Of a DNA stretch of 20,000 nucleotides, positions 1-15,966 are shown in pieces. The stretch comes from Psammoneis japonica. Lineage: Eukaryota. The translations under genes were made by a program, and so were the position numbers. The DNA is taken from contig QPGO01000273.1 in NCBI GenBank assembly GCA_008632985.1, positions 59,200-79,199 on the forward strand, in the 5' to 3' direction. The notes beneath the pieces were generated by a model. That model had not been told where the DNA came from, made no database searches, and saw only the letters and a program-made list of their open reading frames with translations. The number at the start of each line of letters is the position of its first letter. The first letter of the stretch is position 1.

Positions 1-348
1 CAACCTTGGGTTGAGCTGCAACCTGGGTTGAGCCTCACCGTGAGGCAGGTTGATGGGTGTCAGGGAGTGCTGTGCGAGGATTTTTCCCCTTCTTCTCTGC
101 ATGATGATGCAAGATTTCTCCATTGCTCAGCTTGTGTTGGCAATTGTTTGTGCCATTGTTGTTTCGTCATGCACCTGCTGTGCAACAGGGTTGTGGCCAA
201 TGTGCTGAACGCCGGTTTCCGGCAGTTGTCGGACTCATTCATGCGGGCGGTGCTGGTGTCCGCACGTTGAAGTTGAAGCAGGGCTACAACCTTCGCCCAT
301 GTAGAAATCTGCGCATTCGTCGTACTGGCACTTTTGAAAATTCTGCAT
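1..348 (-). pseudogene. Possible eroded gene of unknown function, divergent from the monooxygenase (5' part only in window)
   Basis: Minus-strand ATG at 348 is preceded by CAACACAAACAAC, an A/C-rich leader. The frame reads MQNFQKCQYDECADFYMGEGCSPASTSTCGHQHRPHE*VRQLPETGVQ...NTS*AMEKSCIIMQRRRGKILAQ... with two TGA stops (plus-strand 235-237 and 127-129), compatible with CGA->TGA. No homolog recognised. Confidence 0.3.
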
Positions 349-483
349 GTTGTTTGTGTTGATTGATTGAGTGATGGGTGACGGGTCGTGTCAGCAGTGA
401 CACAAGACACAACATCATCATGTTCTCCAAGGGAGGCCATGACATGCACAACTGAAAACCGTCAAAAGATTCTTTGATCGAAG

Positions 484-576
484 ATGATCCTTCCAGGACC
501 TTTACGTCTCCTTGCTTTGTCTGCCGCTGTGGAGGTGGCTAAGGCCGCTTCCCTTGTCGACCCATCTTCGCCATCT
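484..576 (+). CDS. 5' segment (signal peptide, 31 codons) of the DOMON/copper monooxygenase gene, cut off by the TIR element
   Basis: ATG at 484 gives MILPGPLRLLALSAAVEVAKAASLVDPSSPS, which looks like a signal peptide. Removing 577-3465 plus one ATCT copy joins it in frame to 3470 (SEPYSRWLDAF...GGMPGADI), giving a 569-aa reading frame. Confidence 0.85.
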
Positions 577-600
577 TCATCGTGGAACCCCGCAAATGCG
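577..600 (+). repeat. Left terminal inverted repeat of the TIR element
   Basis: 21 bp perfect plus 2 of the next 3 bp matching the reverse complement of 3442-3465. Confidence 0.92.
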
Positions 601-1517
601 GCAATTTTTTCACATTCGTGGCCGGTTTAAAGGAAAAGGGAAAAAAGGAGGGGATTCCGACAGTTGAACACACACACAATTTGACCATGCAACCAGGGCC
701 AGAGTTGCACTGGCTTCTTTTGGTCCAGGGTGGTTGCTGCAGGTGCAAAGAGTGGGGCACATTGCAGCTGCAGGAGGGCAACAATGTGACTCTGAGTGTG
801 TGCTGCCAAGCTGAGAAGCCCAGCTTGGTTGTGAGCCAAGCCCTGCCAGGCCTGCTGCCCTGGCTCCACAGCTGCTCCTCCCAGTGTGTGCATCAATTGT
901 TGAAGGAGCACCACATTGACTCAAAGGCTGTGTTTTGGGTGGAACAGAGAGGGAAAGAATTGTTGTCCTCTTGACTGGTGCTTGCTTCAGACCCCGCATC
1001 ATGAGCACAAGCTCCTCTTGAGAAATGAGTGAGAGACACTTCACACAGTCATTTTTGGTGCCTCTCTTTGGCTGCCCACTTGGCATTGCCAACAAACTCT
1101 TGAACCCAACCTCACTCACAATTTCTTCACCCTTCAACCACAAAAGCAGGCTCAACTTTTTGTTGGCTTTTTTGTGGCCAGGGATCACTGTTGCAGGCAC
1201 AAATGGTGGGCACATGCCATGTGGCTCTGCTTGGCAACAATGTGATGCCAAGCAAGCATGTGCCACCCACCAAGGAGCCAAGCAGCCCAGCTCAGCTTTG
1301 AATGGAGCTCCAGGACAGCAGCCAGCTCTTGGTGCTCCCAGCATGGCTTGCTTGCTCAAGCTGTGCTGCATTCACCCCACAATGCTCTGTGTTGTGGTGG
1401 CTTGTTGCAAGCCATGAGGAGTCTGCAGTTGGCCAGGGGCCCATTTTGTGAAGGCCACACATGTTGTGTGAGGGGCCAGGTGCAGAGATCTGCAACAACA
1501 GCTTGTGGCTGTTGGCA

Positions 1518-1805
1518 CCAAGTTGGCATTTGATTGGGAGTCAGTGCTGAGGGGCTGTGAAGTGGCTGTGCTGGGGTCAGGAGCCCAGCCAGCTCACACT
1601 CTCTTGTTGTCACAAATTGCTGTCACAGCTGTCTTTGCATTGCAACCAGCCAGGTGCAGTTGGTCCCAAGCTGGCACTTGATTTGGAGTGACTGCCAAGG
1701 AACTGTGAAGTGTGGGGTTGGGCAGTCCAGCCAGCTCACACTCTTTGCTGACAGCAGAAAGTGCTGTCACACCTGTCTTTGCATTGTGGTGCCAGCCAGG
1801 CACAC
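1518..1805 (+). repeat. Diverged tandem duplication (~148-bp period) inside the element
   Basis: CCAAGTTGGCATTTGATTGGGAGT...CCAGCCAGCTCACACTCT...TGCTGTCACAGCTGTCTTTGCATTG from 1518 recurs as CCAAGCTGGCACTTGATTTGGAGT...CCAGCCAGCTCACACTCT...TGCTGTCACACCTGTCTTTGCATTG from 1666. Confidence 0.85.
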
Positions 1806-2630
1806 ATGGCCAGAGCAGCCTTGGCACATCCTGCTGACAAAACTGGCAAAACAGCAGCTCTTGTGGTTGGGCCAGCATGCAGGCAGTCTGGGCACACCCC
1901 TGGGAAGTCAAACAGGAAGGAGGGCTCAGCATTGCCGCCAGTGCCAGAAACATGCTCAGCAGCTTGTCTTGAGAGAGATTCGAGCCCACACAGCCCCGAG
2001 CTGGGTGTCTTGGCTGGCAGGTTGGAAAGCATTCTTGAGCACAGTCTGGTGTGTGGGTGGCACTGTCACCAAGAGAGCTGCTCTGCAGAGGAAGAGGGAA
2101 ACAGGCAACAGCATTTTGCAAGAACTTTTTTTTTTCAATGGTTGGGTGGGATGGGGCAGCATCTGGACTTTGACGGAGCATTTGGCGGACAAAGCTTGAG
2201 CACAGAGAGCTGTCCACTCAAGCTCCACAAGTGGCACATTCCAAAGGTGACACCACACATGGGCCATTTGTTCATGCATCAACATGCATCAAGCTGCAAG
2301 TCTCACAAAAAACCACCACCAACCTTTCAACCAACCACCATGGAGGAGAGAACAGGGCAAGAGGTTCGAAACAAGAGTGATTCGTTGACTCTCTTCTTGT
2401 TTCATGCATTCAAGAGCTTCTTGTCCTTCTTGAACATTTGTTGTGCATTGTTGTCTCTTTTAATTCAAGTGCAAAGAGGAATCACTTTTCTTGTTTCTTT
2501 CTCTTGAGGGGTTGTTGGTTGTTGAGTGATGCAATTTTTGTTGTCACATTTTTGGAAATGTTGGCAAACCCGATCACTGGCTTGATTGTCAACCCATTCA
2601 CCATTTTAAGTCTCCATGGCATAAAATGCC

Positions 2631-3197
2631 ATAAGCCCAGAGCCCTCAATTGTTTCATCAAACGCAGTGCTTTGCACACGTCCAACATCAACTCGACTCA
2701 GTTGAAATCCCAATTTGTGGGCGATGAAAAATCACGAATGTCAAACAAATGGCTACTTTCGACACCAACATCCCCGAGTTCAATCCAAATGTGACGGTAT
2801 GCCTTACAGCTTATGACCATGACACATACAAGCATGCTTTATTGTTGTCATCGCGTACTCGTATTGAAAATGCCGATAGATCAAAGTTTACGAAAAGGAT
2901 GGAATACAAATTCATTTGTGTATTCATTAGTGGCATTGGAATAATGACATTAAGGGCAGAAGGGATCTAAAATCCTTATTCATCATTGACATTTCTGTAT
3001 TGCTCAGAATTTGAATTCTGACCACTGCCGTTAAGCATTTAGCTTTCTTTGTGTCGAAGTGTAAATGACACTTAACGATTTGCACTAATCATATAGCTGT
3101 CTCTGTGTCGAAGTGGAAATGACACTTAACGTTTTACACTATTCATTTAGCTTACTTTGACTCGAAGTCAAATGTCGAGTTTGGGTTATGGGCTTAT
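2631..3197. mobile_element. Candidate nested MITE (~567 bp)
   Basis: Imperfect inverted ends: ATAAGCCCAGAGCCC (2631-2645) vs the reverse complement of 3183-3197, ATAAGCCCATAACCC. A 2-bp AT or TA duplication is possible. The interior is AT-richer and non-coding with subterminal tandem repeats, and its composition differs from the flanks. Confidence 0.5.
3036..3177 (+). repeat. 54-bp tandem repeat, ~2.6 copies
   Basis: Units start at 3036, 3090 and 3144: CATTTAGCTTTCTTTGTGTCGAAGTGTAAATGACACTTAACG... / CATATAGCTGTCTCTGTGTCGAAGTGGAAATGACACTTAACG... / CATTTAGCTTACTTTGACTCGAAGTCAAATG. Confidence 0.85.
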
Positions 3198-3441
3198 CGT
3201 TATTCAGCCACGATCATGAAGTCTTTGCCGCAAATGCGCGGGGACCCTCCTGTAGAGGTCTACGCTCATTTTTGTATGTGGCATTGAAACATGTAGCCTA
3301 CATACGCAAAACTGGTACAGTTTCTACGAAAAAATTTCGAAAAAACGCCTAGTTCGCGAGATAGCTCTGGTACAAAACCTACGCAAATAGTCCCCATACA
3401 TGCACGTACAACTCTACGCATTTCCGGGTTACAGGTCCCCG

Positions 3442-3465
3442 CGTATTTGCGGGGTTCCACGATGA
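3442..3465 (-). repeat. Right terminal inverted repeat of the TIR element
   Basis: CGTATTTGCGGGGTTCCACGATGA followed by the TSD ATCT. Confidence 0.92.
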
Positions 3466-3469
3466 ATCT

Positions 3470-5086
3470 AGTGAGCCGTACTCGCGATGGCTTGATGCAT
3501 TTGGTTCAGACTACACCCATTCGACGTTTGTTGGCAACGGCAATAACGTTGCCGTCCACTGGCGAATCGAAAACGATATCCTTAACCTTGCAGCTGCGGC
3601 GGGAGCCAGCGGATGGATTGGCTTTGGCATTGCAGAGGCAGGTGGAATGCCCGGTGCTGACATCGCTGTGTATGAGGCGCTTGCTGATACGCTTGGGGAC
3701 TACCACGCCCTTACGTTCGGAAGGCCAGAGCTCGATAAATGTCAGGATGATTGGGAACTGATTAGATCAACCGCAGAGGACTCTTTCATTGCCTTTCAGG
3801 CCACCAGAGCCGCATCAACTGGCGACCCACAAGATCGGGATCTGTTTGATGATTCGGACCTGTCTCTTCCTGCCACTCCAATCATTGCAGCATGGGGAGA
3901 TGAGGATGAGCTCTCGTTCCATGGACCGAACCGGACCCGAGGATTTGCTCGATTTTATGGCCCGGAAGGTCTACAGGCGGGGGATGTTTCGAATTTGGAG
4001 GCTGAGAGCGACGGAAGCTTCATAGTCACGGCTCAAAACTTCACTATCCCCTTGGAAGAGACGACTTACCACGAGTTTTGTATCAACGCGACGGACTTCG
4101 AAAATGCACCTAATTTGACCGAAGCTGTCCACATTATTGGTGTTGATTTGGAAAGTTCCGCTGACGTGAATGGAGTTGACACTTCCAAGTATGTCCATCA
4201 CTTTGCGCTATTCGGTCGAAGCTCTACTTGCGACGATCAATTTACTATACCTGTCTTCTTCTACGGATGGGGCCCCGGCCAACCGCCATTTATCCTTCCA
4301 AGTGACGTTGGTCTTCCCCTCGGCGGCCAGAATGGCTTCCAGAGTTTGGGTCTCGAGATTCACTACGATAACGTCGACAAAGATGAAAATATTGTCGACA
4401 GCACCGGCGTCAGGTTGTACTACTCGAACGAGAAACGTGAGAACGAGGTGAATGCCATGATTGTTGGTGACACGTTTACTAGATTGAGGCCTCAGAGCGT
4501 TGGTTCGGGAAAAACCCAGCACACGTTTGACTGTCCATCCAGCTGTTCGCAGTCGAACCTACCGGGGCCCGTCACTATCTTCTCCGAGGCGATGCACACC
4601 CACGAGACTGCGACCAGGACGGTTAATCAAATAGTTCGGGATGGAGTGGTAGTACACGAGGCAGTTGTTGATTTCTGGGACTTTCGTCGAGCCGGAATCA
4701 AGCATGTTCAACAGGAACGCTACGAACTCCAGCCCGGAGATGTCTTCCGAACCACGTGCTACTACGAAAATAGCGACAACAGCACTGTGTTTGGCTTGGG
4801 TACTCAAGAAGAAATGTGTCAGGCACTTCTGTTCTACTATCCTGCCATTTCCCAATCTCACGGGTTTTGTGGCCCTGGACTAACTGAATTTCTTGGAGAT
4901 GAATTATGCGAGGCCTCGTACATGGGCACGGTGCAAGCCGAGGACGACTTTGGGCGTGCTTTTGGTTCACCGCAGGAGGAAGAGTGCTCAACCTCGCCCC
5001 CGTCTACGGCCACTAGAGGAGCTGCGTCACATGTTGCTGCTGCCTCACTGCTTCTGTCCTTCGCTGTTTTCATTTCTACCGCTTAA
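3470..5086 (+). CDS. DOMON domain + copper type II ascorbate-dependent monooxygenase (DBH/MOXD1-like), main coding segment; hydrophobic C-tail suggests a GPI or membrane anchor
   Basis: DOMON signature GWIGFGIAEAGGMPGADI. CuH-site motifs YVHHFALF and LEIHYDN, CuM-site motifs MHTH and QEEMC, plus YGWGPG and DSTGVRLYY. Ends with a Ser/Thr spacer and hydrophobic tail AAASLLLSFAVFISTA. The frame is open from 3470, 59 codons upstream of the supplied ORF start at 3647. Confidence 0.93.
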   Translation, partial: SEPYSRWLDAFGSDYTHSTFVGNGNNVAVHWRIENDILNLAAAAGASGWIGFGIAEAGGMPGADIAVYEALADTLGDYHALTFGRPELDKCQDDWELIRSTAEDSFIAFQATRAASTGDPQDRDLFDDSDLSLPATPIIAAWGDEDELSFHGPNRTRGFARFYGPEGLQAGDVSNLEAESDGSFIVTAQNFTIPLEETTYHEFCINATDFENAPNLTEAVHIIGVDLESSADVNGVDTSKYVHHFALFGRSSTCDDQFTIPVFFYGWGPGQPPFILPSDVGLPLGGQNGFQSLGLEIHYDNVDKDENIVDSTGVRLYYSNEKRENEVNAMIVGDTFTRLRPQSVGSGKTQHTFDCPSSCSQSNLPGPVTIFSEAMHTHETATRTVNQIVRDGVVVHEAVVDFWDFRRAGIKHVQQERYELQPGDVFRTTCYYENSDNSTVFGLGTQEEMCQALLFYYPAISQSHGFCGPGLTEFLGDELCEASYMGTVQAEDDFGRAFGSPQEEECSTSPPSTATRGAASHVAAASLLLSFAVFISTA

Positions 5087-5779
5087 GGATCGACGTCCGT
5101 CAGGATAGATGATGTTGATGCTTTTTTATTCTCTTCATGACATGCTCGTATTCATATCGCAAGATACAAGACCGTATTTGTGGTGTACCTCAGGAGGACG
5201 AGTGTCGCCTTCGTGTCATTTCCTTGCTCTGTGTGTGCCTGATTCTTCAAAACAAAACAAAATTGTGCGTGGGGACGCCGAATCCTCAATCCGTTGATGT
5301 GTAAAAGCAACCCTCTTTGCATGACACTACATAATAAAAAACATCGCAACAGAATAGTGCCGATTCAAAACAATGACAATGCTCGTATCTATGCTAGCTA
5401 ATGAAGGCAAAGTAGAGTAGACTCAACGCTACTCATACACAGAGAAAAATGCGAAAAAAGTCATTCACGGACAACGCACCGAGCTCGAAAACTGAACAGA
5501 ATGCCTCCACCCGCGGATTCTCCTGTGAAAGCACCAACTGTGATGATATACTATTGTGCAACGAGATAAAATCTCAGTGCTCTACATTATTTGTTAAACG
5601 CTGAAAGAAGAAAACCGATTATTGTTCTCCAGCACGACTCTCCCAACAACCCTAATGTCCCCCCCCCGGTACAACTTGGCACTCACGATGCGTCGTCCGG
5701 CAACCGACTTCTACACCAACAGAATGCTTCTCCGACCACAGCCTCGTCACTCCCCGCCCCGCCACACCGATCTTTCAAA

Positions 5780-8340
5780 CTCAAAATTGCGCCAAAGAAA
5801 GGCGTTGACGTTTGTGTGTGCCTTGCGATCCATCACCACCTTGCGAGAAATGTGACGCTTCATCTTTCAAAATCCATGCAATGCCACAGTTTTCACGTGC
5901 ACCACTGCAATCCTTGCTCATCGCCCTCCAGTCTCCACATTGCAGTCATGGCATGATTTAAAGCCACAACATCTGCACACAGTGGCTCCATTCACAGATG
6001 TCGCGCCGCATTTTGAGCGGCACAGCGGCGCAATGTCTGCACAAGGGTTCCTCACAACCTTTGCAATCAAAATTTCCCGCACACTTTCCGCAGTGGGTGG
6101 TGTGACAAAATCAACATCCTTGCAGACATTTGCCCCTGCCCTCCCAACAGAATGCCCCACCCATGCTGTTGTCTCAATCCATGGTGCAAGCGCCCCTTTG
6201 GTTTGTCCTTTGACAACTGCCGTTGGCTGTCAGCGCACAATGGTCAGCAGTGTGGCAAACACCCAGACTGTGATGATCGCAACTCTCATGAAGCAATGGG
6301 TTCTGACAAAGCTCCTCCCACACAGCATGTGATTGTGAATCATGAGGCATTGGCAACATCAAAAGATGTGCAGGTGCCCTTCTGGCTCCCCCACCTTTGC
6401 CTGAGGAGCAGCTGGTTTTGGCCAGAGTGCAAAGATGGGTGGTGTGCTGACTTTTGCAGATAAAATCAGGTTCAGTTTTGCACCCAAACCTGCAATCAAA
6501 GCAGAAGCACCACCACTTGGTCTGTTTGGGAATGACAACAATGCAGTGGATGCATTCCCGTCAAGAGGTGACAACACGCTGACAGCCTGTCCAGTGCAGC
6601 GGGCGAGCTTCATTTTGATGACGTGCCTGGAAAATGGCTTGCCAGCATTGGTGGCTCCTGATGATTCTGGAGATGATGATGATGACACACCAGGTCCTCT
6701 TGTTCCTCAAGTGGCAACAACAGCATGGACAAAATTGGTTCAAGCAATCATTGCAAGCACGAGATGCTTTCTCAATGTTTGTCAGACAGTGAATCGCATG
6801 ACTGCAACTCTGAAAATCCTGTGCTGTGCAGCAATTGTTTGAAGAGGCAGCCTGTCAGATTGCTCTTGGCAACTGCAACTCATCTTGACACACAACTTTT
6901 CCTGTTTTAAAGTCAACACATCTTTGGAGCATCCAATCAAATTCGGCATTGTCTGCATGACAAGAGTGAGCATGCAGTGGCAGGTTTCCTGGTTGCACTC
7001 CTTTGCCTGCCTTGCATGATGATGAGAGATTCAGTTGTCAGTGGTGCACACATCATTGCACATTGTTCAATGGCTTTTTGTGTCACATTGTGCGCACATC
7101 CAAAAGAAAACATTTTCCACAATCGCAAACCCCATGTCAAGAACAAAAAAAGAGCCACGACACAATGGCAAACATTGGGCCATGAGGATGCCCTGTGAAA
7201 AAGAAATCAAAGAGACAATGATGCTGCTGGAGCCACCACACTTGCGCCTGTCTGGGACATCACCGCTGTGTGATGTCTCATCCATTTGATCAACTTGTGA
7301 CAGGTTTTTCACCCAACACTGGCAAAATCTGCTTTGCATGTTGTTGTCCAATTTTTGAAATGACTGAGTCAGCAATCAACCACTGTTGCAGCACCACTCA
7401 ACTCTCCACATTTTGATTGGTGTGCTCCTTTGGTTTGTTGATGTGGAGTTAAAGAAAGGCGTTTGAAACTGCGCCAACGATGCCATGGTTGAGTTCACTT
7501 TTGCATCAAAAAGCATGTGCGGCAGCCACTCACACATCCCTTTGTTTGTCCAGACCTTCAAGATTGAACTTTGCATGCAAAATGTTTCTGACAGCAACTT
7601 TTACATTGGTTGTTTTCAAGTTGGACAATGCACAAAACATGTTGGTGTTGCGCGTGAAAAATGGGCAAACGCACACACCCAAGTCTGGTTGTCAGCAAGG
7701 CAAAAATGTCAAGGAACAATGGCTCAAGAATTTTTGTTGAATTGGTGCAGAAGGATCGCCTTGGATCTGGAAATGCTCTGCCTTGCTGGCAAAGCATGCA
7801 CAGCTGCCAAGCTTGAGACCAGCGCGACACTGCGCCCATGCCTTTGAACAATCAAGGACCCTTTTTGCAGAACAAAGTCTCTTTTGAGCTTGGCGACAAC
7901 ATTGCTTTTGTTTGACACTGTGTGTTTGCAGTGTGTCGAAGCATCTGGAAAAGGCAGGAAATGTGAGAGACCCGGGGTGGAGCCATTGAAGAGAGGACAC
8001 TTCAGCTTTTGAAAATTTGGTGGCGACACTTTGGAAAAAAGCGTGCTGCAAGTCAATTGTGAAAGGAAGGAGTTTGCACTCAACAAGTCAATCATGAAAG
8101 GGGGGGAGTCCCACAAAGTTTCCTGCACTGCGGCATGTCACACTTCTTGTCCTGGGCTGTGAGGACTGTGGTTTCCCTGCTGGAAGCCCTCAATGAATTT
8201 CAGTCTTGCAGCATGACATGTGCCTGCTGACGCCACCACACAACTCATGTGAACAGATGATTCGCTCCAAAGAGCCAGACAAAAGAAGGTTGGTGGCAGG
8301 AAAATGCTGTGCAATTTAAGAGCCCTGTTGTCATGTTGTC
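5780..8340. other. TpA-depleted (partly CpG-depleted) degenerate tract, probably decayed TE or pseudogene sequence
   Basis: Only a handful of TA dinucleotides in ~2.5 kb, mostly TTAA. ORFs essentially lack Tyr and are Cys/His/Gln-rich. A fragment LPALVAPDDSGDDDDDTP (~6640-6690) suggests former coding sequence. Boundaries are approximate and no element family was recognised. Confidence 0.6.
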
Positions 8341-8424
8341 AAATTATTTTGTAAAAAAAACGTACGACCACACCACGCACGGCACACAGCATTCAATGAT
8401 GTGCTGCACCGGGATTCCAAAGAC

Positions 8425-8430
8425 AAAAAA
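8425..8430 (-). terminator. Pol III T6 terminator after the tRNA pair
   Basis: A6 on the plus strand (T6 on minus) lies just 3' of the truncated tRNA-Asn copy. Confidence 0.55.
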
Positions 8431-8431
8431 G

Positions 8432-8504
8432 CTCTCCGTGCTGGGATCGAACCAGCGGCCTCAAGATAACTGTAGCAGTTAAACGGTTATAACAGTCTCG
8501 CGCT
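8432..8504 (-). pseudogene. 5'-truncated, intron-containing tRNA-Asn(GTT) copy
   Basis: Minus strand: AGCG CGAGA CT GTT A [22-nt intron TAACCGTTTAACTGCTACAGTT, plus-strand 8468-8489] A TCTTG AGGCC GCTGG TTCGATC CCAGC ACGGAGA G. The intron is at the canonical 37/38 position. The 5' acceptor strand and D-arm are absent. Confidence 0.8.
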
Positions 8505-8533
8505 GAAGAGATTGCAAGGTGCAAAATAGATAA

Positions 8534-8607
8534 CTCTCCGTGCAGGGATCGAACCTGCGACCTCAAGATTAACAGTCTTGCGCATCTACCAGCTGAGCTA
8601 ACGGAGA
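8534..8607 (-). tRNA. tRNA-Asn (GTT), intronless
   Basis: TCTCCGT TA GCTC AGCTGGTA GATGC G CAAGA CTGTTAA TCTTG AGGTC GCAGG TTCGATC CCTGC ACGGAGA G. It has a 7-bp acceptor stem, perfect anticodon and T stems, and A/B boxes, with one extra T in the 3' D-stem strand. Confidence 0.92.
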
Positions 8608-10565
8608 CGAATGTTTTGTTGGAGGCGGGGAGCAATTTCACCAATGTGATCACTGTTGGTGTTCCACGAAAAAGTGCCAAGTAAGTTGCACATCACACAC
8701 AGACAAACGTAAAAAAAAATCATTTTTTGATCACAACAAACGTCACACCACTCTCACTGCCTCTCGGTGTTATTTCTCATCAACCAAGCCACACCCAGAG
8801 ACATGCAGGGGCATTTTAGAAATGTCTTTGAATGCTTGACAAGGCCACAGTGCGAAAGAGATGCGTTCCAGGTCCAGGTGGGACCTCGCACTGCTGAACT
8901 GTGACATCGACAGTTTTTTGAATCGCGTCGTATGTGGCGCACGTACATTTCTACGTGATTTTGGCAAAATTTTGCATCATTGCAGTGCAATTGTCAGGCG
9001 ATCCATTCAACAACTTTTGACATTTTTTTCTTCTATGCTGGGCTGCGCGCAAAACTGTCTCACCTGCCACCTCTTGCTCCAAACCCAAAGCTGGTCAAAT
9101 CAAAAATTTGAGCACACCTTGCACACCAAAATCGACCATTTTCTTTCGATCTGTCGGTGGACCTGATGCAAAAAACGATCAGAAAGTCGATTTTTTGATG
9201 CAGAGGGTTTTCAAAAACTCAAAATAGACCCACTCTGCTCATTTTCGAGAATGGGTCCGCCGACAGTTCATTTTCTTGTTGCCCCCAGTGCAAACATGCG
9301 CAACTGTCAACCAAAAATTCCATGCATTTGGTTTTGAATGAGCACTTCCATCTTGTTCACTTTTGCCCGCAGCAACCACACTGTCTCCTGCTGACAGTGT
9401 CTCTGAATGCACGAAATGACCCCGTTGTGTGCACCCCAAATGTCACACACAAATTTGTGTGCACGTCATTTCATGTGAATGCCTGCACAAAATGCACATC
9501 CCTTCAACTTTGAACGTTTCTAGTTCACTCTAAACATCTGCCAGAGACCACAGCAAAGGCACCATTGGAAAGAGCAGATTCTCAGCTTTCCATCGATGTG
9601 CCGTTTGTTCCCCACGTGCAATTTGCGCTGGAGATGCAGTCGTGGCAGTCCAACCGGTTTTATGTCCAGCACAGCGCACGCCATTCTCGAGTGTCTTAAG
9701 AATGGCGCAGGGCAGGCACATTGTCCAAAACTTTGAGTGCGAACAGAGACATGTGCACTGCAAACTTGGCCGTTCATTTCATGTCGAAGACAAATGCATC
9801 CATCAACCAGACTGTGAACTGCAGAGCTCGCACGTAGAATTCTGCGGGGCAAATGTCACAAAAAGTCCCACCTGGGACTGGAACCCGTCAAGAGTGAATG
9901 AAGTGCGCACTGCCAATGAGAGTTGGTGAAAATTGACGAACAAAACATTGTTTTGTGTTCCTGTGAAATCGAGAAAGGTTGTTTGTTTGCACAGATTGCC
10001 TCTTTCCCCAAACGCTGCCCGGCTCTGCCGAACTGAGCTGACAGAGAGTTGACTGTTGTTGCTTGTTCAGCATTGTTTTGACATTCAGTTGCTGATTTGT
10101 TCAAGTTTGGCAACCAAGCCAAACATTTTTCCAGAAGGCAGAATTTGCGCTCGCACACAACACGCCGGCGCACATTCGCGTGAAACCTTCAGGACAACAA
10201 CTGACATGCGATTGCACACAGATTGACTTCGGACAATCATGCTGGACTTTTTGCAATTGTTGGTGCTTTCTTTGGGTGGCTGAAATGAGGTCCAGGGTCC
10301 AGGGCCACCTCTCACAGGTGTCATCTGTCTGCTCATCATCAAGGGGTCAGGGAGTGCGGCTGCTTTCTTGTTTGTTGGCGGGCACGTGGCGCGTGGCACA
10401 AAAATGGTCTTGAGACAGCTGGAGAAGCAAGTTGTGCCAGTGCTGTGTGTGAAAAAAACAAGTTGCTGCTTTGTTTTGCAATCTGCCCACCAGAGCTTTG
10501 CCCATTGCCCCCTCCCCACCAGCAGCAGCAGAGATGCGCTGCTTGCTGGAAAGCCAGTGGCCAAC

Positions 10566-10786
10566 CCGCTCTCTGACGGCAGCTGCCAGGAGCACTTTGA
10601 GCACCTGGGGAGTGACCTTGCATGTCTCTGACCCACAAATTGATGCCTGCCACACTGGTGCTTTGAAGAAAAATGACACATGGAGACTTCTGCACCTGGG
10701 AAGCCACTCTCAGATGGAAGCCTCCAGAAAAGCCCTTTGAGTGCCTGGGCAGCAATGGTGCACATCTTTGACCCACAATGTGATGG
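10566..10786 (+). pseudogene. Fossil protein-coding internal repeat (two ~46-codon-period units) of an unknown protein
   Basis: Unit 1 PLSDGS..FEHLGSDLACL*PTN*C and unit 2 PLSDGS..FECLGSNGAHL*PTM*W. Many differences are synonymous third-position changes (TCT/TCA, GAC/GAT, GGC/GGA, GGG/GGC, AGT/AGC, CTC/CTT), so this frame was under coding constraint. Unit 2 contains a frameshift. Confidence 0.7.
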
Positions 10787-12086
10787 CCGTTCTTGCACTG
10801 CTGCTTAAAAATGTTGGAAGTTGAGGTGCTGTCAAAGGCTTTTGTGTGATCTGGGTTGTCCAGGAGCCCTCCACAGGGCACTGAGTCTTGAAAGTTGCAG
10901 ACAGGAAACTCACCCAGGAGCACTCCTCCTCAGCAGGTTGATGCCCTGGGACATTGGCCTGGCCTGTTTCTTCCACCTGGACAGAGATTGTCCCACAATG
11001 AGCACACAGCTTTGGGCACTCAAAATGCATCCGCACATTTGTGGGCTGGGTGGGCTGGCACTGCACTCACCCTTGTGCTGGCAACAAAGAGACGTCACCT
11101 GGCCGCCAGTGACACAGCAGGGTGTGAATGTTGACAGTGCCCTGGCACCAGCTTCATTGCCATTTTGGTGCACAAGCCTGCACATTTGAAAAGCTCCATG
11201 TGAGTCACTGGAAAGTGCTGTGTTGCTGCAAGAGTGGCAAGAAGAAGCTGATTTCTTCTCGAGATGGCTCATGAACAAGGTGAAAAATGGACAGAAACTG
11301 CCTTCTGACAGAATTCAAACAATGTTGTGAAATTTTTGTCATCTCTTTCACGACCACACCACAATGGGTCAAGCCAAAACATGCCCAAACAAGATGCTGT
11401 GTGCAGGGCACCTCTTTGTGTTGTGCAGCTGTGTGAAAGAGGGGCACGTGCATGAAGCCACAGGCCTGGTGTTTTGTCTCTGCTCGTCTTCAGTCATCTG
11501 CAAGAAGTGCATGCTGGGATTTTGTGTGGAAGGCTTGCTCACCACAAATTGTGAAACCAACAACACTTTGAACTTTTTTTGTGAATCCAATGAAGAAATC
11601 TCAGTGGTGTGTTTTGTTTTGTGGGAATGACAGAAAAGAAAGTGCAGCAACAAGTCATGGCAGAGAGGAGCACCACCATTGCTTTGGGAATGCAGTCAGC
11701 ATTGCACATTGGGGTGAATGACAGAAATGAAGATGCAGGGGTGAGAAGTGTGTTGGGTGACACTGTGTTCATGGCAAACATGGGCAGTTTTTTTTACAAT
11801 GCCACAACACGCCAATCATCTCTCTCAGTGTTGAAACATTGACCCAACAATGGTTTTGTTCTCTTGACCTGTTGTTTTGTTTTTGGCTTTGTCCATTTTC
11901 CACAGAAATCATGCGGCATGGCTCAAAGCAGCACTGCATCATCATGTGGCATGACTCAAGGTGATGTGCCAGTTTTGTGCAGTGTGACTCAAGAGCTGGG
12001 GCTCTGCCCACCTCTGAACATTGAAGTGGCTGATGAGAGTGAGGCTCAGCTTGATGCTGCAAGGGCAGGAGAATGTGTTGGCACCA

Positions 12087-12106
12087 GCTGCTGCTGCTGC
12101 TGCTGC
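12087..12106. repeat. (GCT)n microsatellite
   Basis: GCTGCTGCTGCTGCTGCTGC seen directly. Confidence 0.8.
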
Positions 12107-14987
12107 CACTGTGACTCCTGGTGCTGGTGGTGCCGCTCCTGCTGCAACTTTCAGTTTCACTCATGTTTGCATTTGTGCTCTGGTCCATGCATGTGTTCTG
12201 GAGACCAAGTCTCTCTGAGTTCTTGTGTGTGCTGCTGTTGACATTGGCATGATCTTGATGCATCCTTTGCATGCCAACTGCACTCTTTTGGTGCAGAGCA
12301 CACAAAGAACTGGCAGTGCAACCCAGGTTTGTTGACATGATCAGATCTGTTGTTTAAGACATGCAACCCCTCCTGCAGACTGAGGGGCCATTCATCATGC
12401 TTGCTTGCAATGGTGGAGCTGGCCTTCAACCAGGCAAAACAGAGAGATGCTGTCAGAGCCAAAACACATTGTTGTTTTGCATTTGAAGCACACTTTTGTA
12501 AAACTGGAAGGCAGTGAATTGGCTGCCATCTGCCCAAGCCAACAGAGAATGGAGTTGGTCTTTTTGGTGAAAAAACAGGCGCCACCCATTTGGGTTGGGC
12601 AACATGAGCCACAGTGCAACCTGTTGAGACCATGTTGTTTGGCAAACATCTTGCACAGCTGTTGCAGCCAGGGTGGCTGCAGCTCAATCTCAAGTGCTTG
12701 GTTTTAGCTTTGATCATCAAAGTGCCATTGCAGGCAGAGCCAATGAGTGAAGTGGCACAAGCTTCATCAGAGAGGGGGCATTTGACTGGGAGGCAGGAGC
12801 GGCATTGGCAGCAGAGTGAGTTGGCACAGTCACAAGAGCAAAACAACAAGAGAGTTGGAGAGGTTGCAACTGAACTCAAGAGCAATGGCAGAGGCATGCT
12901 GGCAGTGGGAGGCTGAGTCTCAAGAATGATGATGGAAGTGGTGTTGTGCAGCAGGTCACAAGCAGCAGCCAATGCAGAGCAGTCAAGAGCCAGTGTTGCA
13001 GCTCCAATTTAGATGGCTTCAACAGCAAGAGTGGGTGCATTGGGGCAACAGGAGAGTCATGTTTCAAACACTTTAAATGAGAGCACTGAGTCAGCAACAT
13101 TCAACATGCAATTGTGTGCCTCAACCCAATGTGTGTGTTTGATTTCCAGCGCATTTGCTCACCAGGCTCAATGCCATGTCAGTCATCCCAGACCTCTTTG
13201 TGCTCTCAGACATGTCATCTTAGAAGGACCCTCACCCCTGAAGCTTCTTGTCTTCTTTGATTCAAGAGGCTCCTCATCTTCCTTGGTGTAAAAAATGGCT
13301 GTCTGTCATCACAGTCATTGTTCTTGTCAGCAGAGTTGTCGCTGACAGCGGTCTTGCCAGCCATTGGCTCACTTGAAGCTGCATCTGAGATGCTTGTTGC
13401 CAAGGAGGGAGATGGGTTGGTGTTGCTTGACAGGGCACTTGCAACATTGGCAGAAGGTGAGTCAGTGTTGGCAATGCCAGCAGAGGGCAAATCAAGAGCT
13501 CTTGTGGGTGGTGGGGATCAAAAGAAGAGCTGCTTGTTGGTGGAGCAAGCAGCTTGGTCATTTTTGAGGCTTTCACCTTCTTGTGCATGGGTCTTTCTGC
13601 TGCTGTTTTTTTGTTGTGTTGGCATCTTGGCAGCTGTCCAGAACTTGCAAGGAGAGCTGAAAAATGTGGTTGGCCACTTTTGGTGGAGAGCAAGGCCAGC
13701 GGCACTTTCTTTGGTTGGCTTCAGAGCACAAGAAGCAGACATGCTGGCAGCAGAATCATTGCTGTGATTTTTGGCAACAAGGAATCTGACTGTTGATGGA
13801 GGCTCCTTGGTGCTTGTGTGCTTCATCTCACTTTTTTCATGCCTCAGCATGTTGGCACAAAAAATTCAGCCAGGGTCAATGGGCTCCCATCATCTACAAG
13901 CTGAAAGCATCGAAACAGCATGCACAATGTCAAACACAGCAAAATCAATGAACAAATGAGAGAAAATGCAAAAAAGAAAAAAAAGAGAGAAATGCAGGAG
14001 TTGAACACAAGTTCTTGCCATGGTGTTGAGTCAGCATGACTGTTTGTCTGGACCCAATGTCTGCCCACTGTCCATCAACATTTTCATGCACAGCACTGCA
14101 AAGTTTTCTCTCACTGGTGATCGCATGGTGATTCTTGCAGGAAAAGTTGTCTCTGCAGAAGGCCATCAAAAGAAAGAAGTTCTGCTCTTTTTGGGTCAAT
14201 GTGGGCAGCTGAGAAGTGTGCTTTGATCCTGCATTTTCACCCCAACATCAAACAGACATTTTTTGAAACCTCATGTGGGGTTGAATTTTCTTGTTCTCAC
14301 TGCTGGATCTTTGTGCAGCTCAATGGTTGAGCAGGCATTTGATCATGCTGTGTGGCTCTGTGGTTCCTTGCAGATGTCCTGGCCCAGCTGCAAATGCAAA
14401 GAATCACAAACTCAAAAATCTGCAGGAACATGCCAACAACTTGGTTGACTTTGGAGTGGCACATGGCAGAGAGGACCTTTTCAAGAAAGAAAGCTCCTTG
14501 TGTAATTTCAGCAGCGTGCTGCTGCATTTCATTTGTGGCTGCCAGATCTCAACTGCCAGCATTTTTTGCACCACACATGAAGAGCAATCCCATCATTTGT
14601 TTGAGAGGGAGAAGAAGAAATAGAAAGCTGAGTTTTGAAATGAGTGCCCCCACCCTGCTTTTTCAAACTGACCAGCTCTGTAGACTTCCTTGGCAGCTGA
14701 CACCAATGTCTTCTCTCTTGACAACATTTTTGACATTGGTCTTAACTGAGTGCAGCCTTGCAGTGCTGCCCAGCCACCAAAGAGGTTGTCCTTGCCAGAA
14801 CCTGAAAGATCTGCCACATGCCTGGGATGTAGAAAATTGCAACATTTGAAGCTGTGGCTCTTGTCCATGTGCTTGTGAAGACACTTGCAAGACAAGGAAG
14901 AAGCATGATGAAGAGGCACACACGAAGCCCCGAAGTTGAAGCTGTTGAAGTGTGTTGAGGCTTGGAAAAGTGAGTGCACTCAACGAA

Positions 14988-15030
14988 TGTTGTTGCTGTT
15001 GTCGTTGTTGTTGTTTTGTTGTTGTTGTTG
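14988..15030. repeat. Imperfect (TGT/GTT)n microsatellite
   Basis: TGTTGTTGCTGTTGTCGTTGTTGTTGTTTTGTTGTTGTTGTTG seen directly. Confidence 0.8.
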
Positions 15031-15409
15031 CATTTGGGCTTGGACAAGGGCTTTCTTGAGCTCTTCTGTGTTGCCAAAAAATGAATGCAAAGAAATGGTG
15101 GCTTGCAGAGTGCTGTGTCAAGAACATCATGTGAGGCACTGTCCAATCCATCCATGGCACTCCAATGGTGGGCAATTGGAGGTTCATGGGCAGGAGGTGC
15201 CAGGAGACTTTCTGTGTGCATGAACATCACAACAATTGCTCATTGATGGCAAGGCACATCACACTGATGATCAAAAATGCATTGAGGAGGAGGCAGCTGT
15301 GATTTCAATGATGCCTTTCATGATGTGGATTGTGGAAGGATCCAGCCTCAATTTCCCATGTTCTCAAAGTCATCCATTCACTGTCAGTCACGCTGTGCTC
15401 TCCAAAATG

Positions 15410-15424
15410 CCCCCCCCCCCCCCC
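15410..15424. repeat. C15 homopolymer
   Basis: 15 consecutive C near the right edge of the degenerate tract. Confidence 0.85.
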
Positions 15425-15966
15425 TTGCTCTTTGTGATGAAGATTCTGTCAAACTTTTGCATCAGCAAATGTACCCAAAATGCAACCAATTGGACCCTCG
15501 TTCCTGTCTCAAACAAATTTGCTGTGGTTTGTCCTGTCTTTGGTGGGTTCCTGAAAGTGATGACAAGGACGACAATGGAACCTGGTTCATAGATTTGCCT
15601 TTGGAACGGATGGATGAAGACGTGATTTCTGACTGAGGAATAAGAATGGAGCAATGCTTTCGAACTTAGCTCCTCACAACGGCCTTGTCGTTAAGGAAAC
15701 TATTTGCAGTGCCCTGAAAGCAACTCGTAAGAATTGGCGCCTCCACAGTGAAAAGAGGATGTCAATCTCTCTCTAACACTTGAATGCGAAAAGCGCAGTT
15801 GCAAAACAATTCGATTCAACTGCAAATGATTGTGAGAGGTTGTACGATCTTGATTCTACTATAGTTTGACTTTGACAATTGACCTGTAAAACAAATTTTA
15901 CTCTCTAGAGAGCGAGCTATTCAGTGCGGTAGAAATAGCATGTGCTCGCACAATGCGCTCCGCTAT

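What the first reader, a model, noticed from the sequence alone, without database searches (positions are those of the whole stretch)
5780..10200. TpA loss is decoupled from CpG loss
Seen: at 5780-6420 and 9900-10200 CG is still frequent (e.g. TCGCGCCGCATTTTGAGCGGCACAGCGGCG at 6001; GCGCTCGCACACAACACGCCGGCG at ~10147), while TA is absent apart from one TTAA. In tract cores (1000-1930, 10.6-15.4 kb) both are gone. Inference: TA removal is faster or spreads further than CpG decay, so it is a separate mechanism and not a by-product of methyl-CpG deamination.
Basis: partly seen in the sequence, partly recalled or inferred. Interest (0 to 1): 0.75.

Follow-up and report, generated by a model that had tools for sequence, protein, structure and literature searches.

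The report
Fast TA-erasing mutation in silent DNA
In silent, transposon-rich DNA of a diatom, TA steps are turned into TG or CA several times faster than methylated CG steps decay, in the same places but by different chemistry, which points to a natural A-to-G DNA editor so far described only in one other alga.

Summary
5780-6420 holds 1 TA and 20 CG (o/e 0.03 and 0.48); 9900-10200 holds 0 TA and 13 CG (0.80). The host is a diatom. The interval contains nested MITEs, which give before/after pairs: the window's MITE-A copy lost 26 of 29 TA but 8 of 26 CG. Over 47 MITE copies TA goes about 5-8 times faster at every stage, and the two losses correlate (rho 0.76). In 23 LTR pairs, 132 of 225 TA sites differ against 76 of 480 CG sites. 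TA and CG tract edges mostly coincide within 150-300 bp. So TA loss is faster, does not spread further, and is decoupled in chemistry, not in place. The change is almost only TA>TG/CA on both strands, fastest at TAY, and slowed by T, or by C of a CpG, three bases upstream, as if 5mC were read. AA is spared, which argues against polymerase-eta repair. Best reading: an adenine deaminase working in CG-methylated chromatin; the enzyme is not identified. Closest known: TpA hypermutation in Bigelowiella (2026 preprint). This scan noted the same process, and TA-before-CG, earlier on other DNA of this genome.

The parts
5713..8316 (.). TA-stripped, single-copy silent tract (5 TA in 2.6 kb, CG survival about 0.36); no Pfam family over cut-off in six frames
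   Evidence: HMM segment, counts; 5780-7300 has one 137-bp relative elsewhere; depth about 60x; Pfam
5713..6120 (.). Left shoulder: TA gone, CG mostly kept (o/e 0.79 in 5780-6120); read as the most recently silenced rim of the tract (inference)
   Evidence: HMM TA edge 5713, CG edge 5857
6007..6030 (.).
   Evidence: table 3, contexts
8317..8952 (.). Island that keeps both TA and CG, around a tRNA-Asn gene and a second, diverged tRNA-like copy starting at 8432
   Evidence: (D9)
8534..8607 (-). tRNA-Asn (GTT)
8860..9889 (.). MITE family B (about 390 bp, inverted arms 8860-8884 and 9865-9889), split by MITE A; this copy lost 26 of 32 inferred TA and 5 of 24 CG
   Evidence: (I10); read depth of 46,000-73,000 against 60 suggests about 1000 copies
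9036..9676 (.). MITE family A (about 640 bp) inserted at a TA of MITE B; left target copy TA (9034-9035) kept, right copy now CA (9677-9678). Lost 26 of 29 TA (13 TG, 12 CA, 1 other) and 8 of 26 CG against intact copies
   Evidence: Fisher P 7e-6
9896..10020 (.). Short repeat family C (9 other places, 79-87% identity); relatives L137-L139 keep TA steps that are TG or CA here
9900..10400 (.). Right zone of the finding: TA absent, CG o/e 0.80 in 9900-10200 falling to 0.34 in 10201-10600; position 10120 reads TA instead of CA in public contigs
10600..15587 (.). Old core tract, near single copy, both TA and CG gone; short decayed matches to repeats elsewhere
1..2606 (.). Left tract, TA- and CG-low; TA edge 2606 and CG edge 2659 coincide

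Best explanation
Two clocks run in one kind of domain. (1, inferred) Transposons and adjoining DNA become silenced and CG-methylated. (2, shown) From then on TpA turns into TpG or CpA in place, on both strands, about 5-8 times faster on average than CpG decays. Young insertions and newly silenced rims therefore look TA-null/CG-normal, and old cores have lost both. (3, shown) The TA process has its own sequence rule: the mutated A needs a 5' T, prefers a 3' pyrimidine, and is slowed by T at -3 or by the C of a CpG at -3. (4, inferred) The simplest chemistry is enzymatic deamination of A to inosine, read as G, by a TadA/ADAT- or ADAR-type enzyme brought to silenced chromatin, not repair errors set off by 5mC deamination. 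(5, inferred) That C at -3 protects only in CpG, as T does always, suggests that the enzyme meets already methylated DNA and senses a 5-methyl group. The first two steps I hold at about 0.9; the stated confidence is for the whole chain with a deaminase.
For: Before/after: window MITE A 26/29 TA against 8/26 CG, L009 22/29 against 1/26. Family B1, 28 copies: TA lost 653/896, of which 637 to TG or CA (305 and 332); CG lost 123/699; B2, 8 copies: 132/224 and 43/231. Without any ancestral inference, 23 LTR pairs (6384 columns): TA sites differ 132/225, CG sites 76/480, TG/CA 58, other transitions 22, transversions 13. In place and after insertion: one site gives TG in some copies and CA in others; two B2 copies with 29 TA sit in TA-poor flanks, o/e 0.05 and 0.27. 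Specificity in B1: TAN 647/1792 strand-sites, AAN 24/1984, CAN 29/1204, GAN 24/1344. Context fit with site bootstrap, 157 sites: +1A x0.31, +1G x0.46, -3T x0.37 [0.27-0.51], -3C x0.80 [0.51-1.25], CGTA x0.28 [0.10-0.76]; separate set of 127 copia-body sites: CGTA x0.26 [0.13-0.45], -3T x0.57, -3C x1.13. Same place; in copia leaders, copies that keep TA also keep CG. Methylation: CpG C>T 109/1399 against 18/3133 elsewhere; 27 C5-methylase matches in the genome; DNMT5a methylates TEs in Phaeodactylum (abstract, PMC9998398). Candidate enzymes exist: ADAT2-like and TadA-like genes and two ADAR/ADAT1-domain genes, one conserved across diatoms. In Bigelowiella the TpA process runs without a comparable rise of GC>AT.
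Against: No enzyme is tied to the process; the candidates are housekeeping or diatom-wide genes. No methylation data: methylation is inferred from CpG decay. The CGTA effect was not seen in the TA-rich copia end alone (x0.76 [0.07-3.11], 9 strand-sites); copia-body sites are biased to survivors and under past selection; copies share ancestry. In the most recent duplicates CG differences outnumber TA ones (L009/L010 16 of 184 CG against 2 of 31 TA; L062/L063 12 of 248 against 0 of 46), which fits resistant survivors or an episodic process but not a steady faster clock at all sites. Events show little strand clustering (only <=10 bp, 97 of 166 against 86 expected, p 0.027, one of four distances), which a processive enzyme on single-stranded DNA might give. 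A T-side lesion gives the same product and cannot be told apart from sequence. The constant ratio and shared edges are also what a by-product model predicts.
Confidence: 0.5

Rival explanations
1. Indirect by-product: 5mC deamination makes G:T mispairs whose long-patch repair by an error-prone polymerase (polymerase eta, as in antibody hypermutation) mutates nearby A:T pairs while usually restoring the CpG.
For: Same domains, no lag, constant ratio, rho 0.76. The route from C deamination to A/T mutation with a WA hotspot is established in B cells (passages of PMC6423074). The second A of TAA is hit more often when the first was hit on the same strand: 8/100 and 6/163, against background 47/2582 and 152/14735.
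Against: AA is not raised over CA or GA in B1 (24/1984) although WA includes AA; the window's MITE A copy alone has AAN 8/101, partly one run. 637 of 653 TA losses are the two transitions; polymerase eta also makes many transversions (recalled). No patch-scale strand coordination (variance 14.1 against 15.4) and no excess TA loss near decayed CpGs (94 against 98; 285 against 298.5). An adjacent CpG slows the change. The polymerase eta gene was not searched for.
Confidence: 0.15
2. A thymine mark: a TET/JBP-like oxygenase modifies T of TpA in silenced repeats (5hmU, further to 5-formyluracil), which mispairs with G and gives T>C.
For: Dinoflagellate 5hmU is enriched in repeats and was reported to replace T preferentially in TA and TC (passage of PMC11572971). 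The product is the same as for A deamination. 5fU:G mispairing is recalled.
Against: T>C at TC is not raised (GAN 24/1344). Pfam Tet_JBP gave 0 matches, but the control rang nowhere, so the search is inconclusive. The passages seen do not mention diatoms.
Confidence: 0.15
3. A modified adenine or another unknown lesion at TpA in silenced chromatin that decays or miscodes without a dedicated editor, or a diatom-specific polymerase that replicates heterochromatin with a TpA error.
For: Steady ratio to CpG decay, which is itself a passive clock; little clustering.
Against: No positive evidence; the known eukaryotic 6mA is at ApT and goes with transcription (search listing only). The -3 and +1 rule looks like a protein footprint.
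Confidence: 0.17
4. Not an in-place DNA mutator: selection against TA, RNA editing during retrotransposition, or an assembly artefact.
For: The copia family amplified from templates that were already TA-poor, so some loss is inherited.
Against: DNA transposons and single-copy DNA are hit; both strands equally (305 TG, 332 CA); LTRs of one copy diverge at TA after insertion; public contigs agree with the window.
Confidence: 0.03

Closest known systems
TpA-specific hypermutation of integrated NCLDV and virophage DNA in Bigelowiella natans (Mettrop et al., bioRxiv 10.64898/2026.01.13.699255)
   Same: TpA>TpG/CpA on both strands, nearly only transitions, confined to regions of foreign origin, TpA-poor clusters that hold transposon domains, adenine deaminase proposed (parts 1-3 of 5 read).
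   Different: Here in a diatom; it covers MITEs, a copia family and single-copy DNA and runs to near completion (o/e about 0.03-0.05, against rho 0.45 in their NCLDV region). It is co-located with CpG decay; their text has no occurrence of 'CpG' or 'diatom'. Their rate is measured, mine is relative.
Decay of methylated CpG (5mC deamination) in DNMT5-methylated diatom transposons
   Same: Accounts for the CG half: CG>TG/CA about 13 times over other C>T, same end products TG/CA, same domains.
   Different: Cannot change A:T pairs directly; it is the slower of the two clocks.
Polymerase eta / non-canonical mismatch repair A:T mutagenesis in somatic hypermutation
   Same: C deamination and A:T mutation in one region; TA is a hotspot.
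   Different: AA is spared, transversions are rare, no strand-coordinated patches.
Repeat-induced point mutation (RIP) of fungi
   Same: Local hypermutation of repeats; plausible genome defence.
   Different: RIP is C>T and creates TpA (recalled); here TpA is destroyed, and single-copy DNA is hit.
TadA/ADAT and ADAR adenosine deaminases; adenine base editors
   Same: A>G product and a 5' U/T: TadA reads U-A-C-G (passages of PMC10586758); ADARs can edit the DNA strand of DNA/RNA hybrids (abstract of PMC5389660).
   Different: No natural member is shown to edit diatom chromosomes. ADAR's liking for 3' G (recalled) is the reverse of the rule here; TACG is not favoured here (x0.83).

Membership tests
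Bigelowiella-type TpA hypermutation | A:T>G:C transitions restricted to TpA, on both strands | tested here: met
   637 of 653 TA losses to TG (305) or CA (332); non-TA A>G 77/4532 strand-sites
Bigelowiella-type TpA hypermutation | Confined to regions of foreign or repeat DNA; genes spared | tested here: met
   MITEs, copia and dead tracts hit; the three genes and the tRNA island keep TA. Single-copy tracts are of unknown origin.
Bigelowiella-type TpA hypermutation | Rate about 1000-fold above background per generation | not testable with these tools
   Needs mutation-accumulation lines; only relative rates here
Bigelowiella-type TpA hypermutation | Active in only some lines (episodic) | tested here: inconclusive
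   Recent duplicates show few TA changes (2 of 77) against 28 of 432 CG; copia leaders are two-peaked, 38-48 TA in 11 copies and 6-23 in 13. Both have other readings.
Bigelowiella-type TpA hypermutation | No comparable GC>AT hypermutation in the same regions | tested here: not met
   CpG decay runs in the same domains at about one sixth of the rate
Bigelowiella-type TpA hypermutation | ADAT2-like candidate present | tested here: met
   L114/L173 with HAE and PCxxC-type motif split by a probable intron; a housekeeping gene, so it does not discriminate
5mC deamination | CG>TG/CA excess over other C>T | tested here: met
   109/1399 against 18/3133
5mC deamination | Explains the TA loss directly | tested here: not met
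   TA sites change A:T>G:C
5mC deamination | 5mC measured at these CpGs | not testable with these tools
   The three runs listed are unlabelled DNA contigs
Polymerase eta / ncMMR mutagenesis | WA motif: AA mutated as well as TA | tested here: not met
   AAN 24/1984 against TAN 647/1792; AAN 0.4-1.4% against TAN 12-36% in copia copies
Polymerase eta / ncMMR mutagenesis | Strand-coordinated mutation patches | tested here: not met
   Strand-imbalance variance 14.1 against 15.4; only a weak signal at <=10 bp. Near-saturation lowers the power.
Polymerase eta / ncMMR mutagenesis | Polymerase eta gene present and required | not tested
   No search was made
RIP | C>T mutation that raises TpA | tested here: not met
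   TpA o/e falls to 0.03-0.05; CG>TA 0 of 930
RIP | Needs a duplicated sequence | tested here: not met
   5780-7300 and 10800-15600 are near single copy today; lost partners cannot be excluded
TET/JBP 5hmU marking | TET/JBP gene present | tested here: inconclusive
   0 matches, control silent
TET/JBP 5hmU marking | TC affected along with TA | tested here: not met
   GAN 24/1344

The most novel reading that the evidence does not exclude
Diatoms carry a natural adenine base editor for their own chromosomes: a deaminase (ADAT2/3 or the diatom-wide second ADAR-like editase) recruited by the CG-methylation silencing system, which converts TpA to TpG in methylated DNA with the rule T[A]Y and is hindered by a 5-methyl group at -3. 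It would be a methylation-guided counterpart of RIP, shared with Rhizaria, that ruins tyrosine codons and TA target sites of transposons.
Probability: 0.3. Interest if true: 0.9.

Novelty: new variant of a known kind. Interest (0 to 1): 0.72.

Why it matters
The only published case that my searches found is one 2026 preprint on Bigelowiella, which does not relate the process to CpG decay. Here the relation is measured: same place and onset, different chemistry, about sixfold faster. That makes the question testable in diatoms, where DNMT5a knockouts exist (PMC9998398): does loss of methylation stop TA loss? The context rule is a fingerprint against which candidate enzymes can be assayed, and a natural enzyme that deaminates A in chromosomal DNA would interest genome-defence and base-editing fields. 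The TA and CG clocks together also date transposon insertions and silencing boundaries. By inference the process disables elements by Tyr>Cys/His changes (a copia ORF of 1925 aa has 27 Tyr, 52 Cys, 89 His) and removes TA target sites such as the one MITE A used.

Tried and rejected
1) 'Spreads further': HMM edges and edge-anchored profiles blur by 150-300 bp both ways (19 old edges each); rejected as a rule, although the window's left edge has a 144-bp HMM offset and a CG gradient to about 6120. 2) WA motif: suggested by the window's MITE A copy (AAN 8/101), not upheld in 28 B1 copies or 23 copia comparisons. 3) Protection by TACG (x0.3) vanished once position -3 was modelled (x0.76-1.46). 4) The composition test of CGTA (OR 1.82 and 2.03 against 0.82 in intact DNA) is partly pseudo-replicated by copia copies, so I lean. 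5) Local coupling of TA loss to decayed CpG: none, slightly negative at 25 bp. 6) Six-frame Pfam scan of both tracts: 1 weak hit below cut-off in 12 frames. 7) Tet_JBP search inconclusive. Five MafB19-deam matches look like TadA, dCMP deaminase (two near-identical places), a deaminase fused to an oxygenase, and ADAT2 (names are my reading). 8) No RNA holder listed. 9) A phage search with the helicase gave nothing of use. 10) Literature: 'diatom, TpA, CpG, depletion, transposable element' 2 unrelated papers; dinucleotide search 22 papers, none on this by title; 'TpA, TpG, CpA, hypermutation, repeats, adenine deamination' 11 papers, by title RIP, 5mC or unrelated; 'diatom, mutation spectrum, TpA' 0. 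The library lacks most subscription papers.
Full report
Observation. 5780-6420 has 1 TA against 37.7 expected and 20 CG against 41.4 (o/e 0.48); only its first 340 bp are near normal for CG (16, o/e 0.79). 9900-10200 has 0 TA and 13 CG (o/e 0.80). The cores have lost both (1000-1930: 0 and 0; 10600-15400: 15 and 25, o/e 0.05 and 0.09), and the gene regions have TA 0.43-0.67 and CG 1.04-1.07. Inside the interval, 8301-8960 keeps both TA and CG around a tRNA-Asn gene. Public contigs of run X1, probably the same sample, match the window at single-copy depth over 3440-8790 and 9963-15423.

Setting. The window is G000:C274:59200-79199 of a 91.4-Mb genome. Its genes are a DOMON copper monooxygenase, a DEAD helicase and a pseudouridine synthase. 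The named homologues of one gene of this genome are from diatoms, and a copia element is present (name from my reading of the ORF). 5780-7300 and 10800-15600 are near single copy. At 8860-9889 lies MITE B with inverted arms, split by MITE A, which sits at a TA whose right copy is now CA; a third short repeat follows at 9896-10020.

Before and after. Against intact copies, at sites where two intact subfamilies agree (557 of 659 columns), the window's MITE A lost 26 of 29 TA (13 TG, 12 CA) and 8 of 26 CG (Fisher P 7e-6). Other copies form a series: L011 4/29 and 0/26, L009 22/29 and 1/26, L008 27/29 and 10/26, L013 13/13 and 13/17. For MITE B I aligned 37 full-length hits plus the window copy, dropped 2 duplicates and split the rest into 28 and 8 copies. 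B1 lost 653 of 896 TA and 123 of 699 CG; B2 132 of 224 and 43 of 231. These copies were the best matches to an already mutated query, out of 1423 candidates, and ancestral TA sites were inferred from the columns. Over 47 MITE copies the hazard ratio was 6.7, 4.4, 7.6, 7.3 and 4.6 from the least to the most mutated bin, the two losses correlated (rho 0.76), and 1 of 47 copies had lost a larger share of CG than of TA. A test free of ancestral inference agrees: the two LTRs of a copy are identical at insertion, and in 23 pairs (from 24 copies held) 132 of 225 TA sites and 76 of 480 CG sites differ, with 58 TG/CA pairs, 22 other transitions and 13 transversions in 6384 columns.

Faster or further? 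In 418 windows of C274 and C1, 17 are TA-low with normal CG and none is CG-low with normal TA. An HMM over 409 kb gave 81.7 kb TA-low only, 98.7 kb both low, 3.2 kb CG-low only and 225.7 kb intact; three of the six stretches were chosen around MITE B copies, so the first figure is inflated. Of 49 edges, 9 had no CG-low segment; of the other 40, 21 coincide within 150 bp, 11 have the CG edge further in and 8 further out (2 of these are the tRNA island). The longest TA-only blocks are largely copies of one 7.1-kb copia family. Profiles anchored on 19 old edges blur by 150-300 bp either way. Among the listed differences on single-copy contigs (27 further rows were not shown), the 4 in tracts are all at targets (504 TA/TG, 6008 and 6030 CG/CA, 10120 CA/TA) and the 3 in genes are not. 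The shoulders are thus early stages of one domain type, not a zone that only the TA process reaches.

Chemistry. 637 of 653 TA losses in B1 are TG (305) or CA (332). Per strand-site A>G is 647/1792 after T, 24/1984 after A, 29/1204 after C, 24/1344 after G. A competing-strand fit with bootstrap over 157 sites gives +1A x0.31, +1G x0.46, +1T x1.01 (C = 1), -3T x0.37 [0.27-0.51], -3C x0.80 [0.51-1.25], and CGTA x0.28 [0.10-0.76]. In 127 separate copia-body sites CGTA is x0.26 [0.13-0.45], -3T x0.57 and -3C x1.13; in the 77 copia-end sites alone CGTA is x0.76 [0.07-3.11] on 9 strand-sites. Survivors in 180 kb of tract agree: CGTA 0.21 and TGTA 0.18 against AGTA 0.04 and GGTA 0.07, with CATA 0.05 and CCTA 0.08. 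T and 5mC share a 5-methyl group (established chemistry), so I read this as the process meeting methylated DNA; a plain sequence effect of CG is not excluded. There is no patch-scale strand coordination and no excess TA loss near decayed CpGs. Against a simple picture: the second A of TAA is hit 14 of 263 times after a same-strand hit, against about 1-2% background, and in two recent duplicate pairs CG differences (28 of 432) outrun TA differences (2 of 77).

Mechanism. Deamination of 5mC cannot change A:T pairs. The indirect route, repair by polymerase eta as in antibody genes (passages of PMC6423074), predicts AA hits, transversions (recalled) and patches, which are missing; I give it 0.15. 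A thymine mark like dinoflagellate 5hmU, reported at TA and TC (passage of PMC11572971), gives the same product, but TC is spared and the gene search was inconclusive; 0.15. Adenine deamination in methylated chromatin fits best (0.5). The genome has 27 C5-methylase matches, TadA- and ADAT2-like genes and two ADAR/ADAT1-domain genes. One of the two looks like ADAT1 (motif recalled); the other has 294 homologues, the named ones diatom, and both match ADAR structures weakly (84 used the homologue P0080). ADARs can edit DNA in hybrids (abstract of PMC5389660) and TadA reads U-A-C-G (passages of PMC10586758). None of this ties an enzyme to the process.

What is known. Mettrop et al. (bioRxiv 10.64898/2026.01.13.699255; parts 1-3 of 5 read; supplements closed) measured TpA-only A>G/T>C hypermutation in integrated viral DNA of Bigelowiella and proposed ADAT2; the text has no 'CpG' or 'diatom'. 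I found no paper on this in diatoms (the library lacks most subscription journals). Earlier notes of this scan describe the same tracts on other pieces of this genome, gave me the preprint, and two already state that TA goes before CpG in MITE copies; a look-up for the CGTA rule returned nothing. They are leads, not support; the counts above are my own.

Verdict. Real and non-random. It works like the Bigelowiella process and differs in host, targets, completeness and its pairing with CpG decay: a new variant of a kind known from one preprint. Interest 0.72.

Noticed in passing
window 576-3466: High-copy element with inverted ends (I3; depth 3000-4800 against 60 over 668-3335) whose left 2 kb lack TA and CG while its right 0.8 kb keep them. 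Many contigs match at 92% or more, so it may have multiplied after being stripped.
   Followed up: no
L151-L170; G000:C274:47632-54743 and 21302-28560: 7.1-kb copia family (1051 candidates). A young copy has an open 1925-aa ORF although TA-poor (64 TA in 5.8 kb; 27 Tyr, 52 Cys, 89 His), so it spread from templates already stripped of most TA.
   Followed up: partly
L168 400-1215 and the same part of 23 other copies: The copia leader is two-peaked: 38-48 TA in 11 copies, 6-23 in 13; the TA-rich ones lost 22 of 627 CG, the others 95 of 741 (summed). It looks like a protected promoter that switches to silenced.
   Followed up: partly
window 8317-8952: A 600-bp island around tRNA-Asn and a second tRNA-like copy escapes both processes, also outside the tRNA body; possibly Pol III chromatin acting as a shield.
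   Followed up: partly
window about 9282-9288: In the window's MITE A copy a run TTTTTA of intact copies reads CCCCCA: five neighbouring A>G on one strand, not seen in the other 7 copies aligned.
   Followed up: partly
G000:C79:344.2-345.9 kb (L172 1572-3288): Second ADAR-like editase besides a likely ADAT1; its best homologues list only PF02137 and the named ones come from centric and pennate diatoms. Function unknown.
   Followed up: partly
G000 C43, C10, C59, C78, C27, C301, C297, C34: 27 C5 DNA methylase matches, several in long open frames and several with stops, clustered on C297 and C10; types not determined.
   Followed up: no
L113 316-1791 (-): A deaminase domain in one frame with what looks like a 2OG-Fe(II) oxygenase (my reading).
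   Followed up: no
window 3032-3193: Three tandem 54-bp units inside the high-copy element (D1).
   Followed up: no
L053-L067 flanks: Nearly all 37 MITE B hits lie in TA-poor flanks (o/e 0.02-0.27), often inside copia copies; partly a bias of searching with a mutated copy.
   Followed up: no
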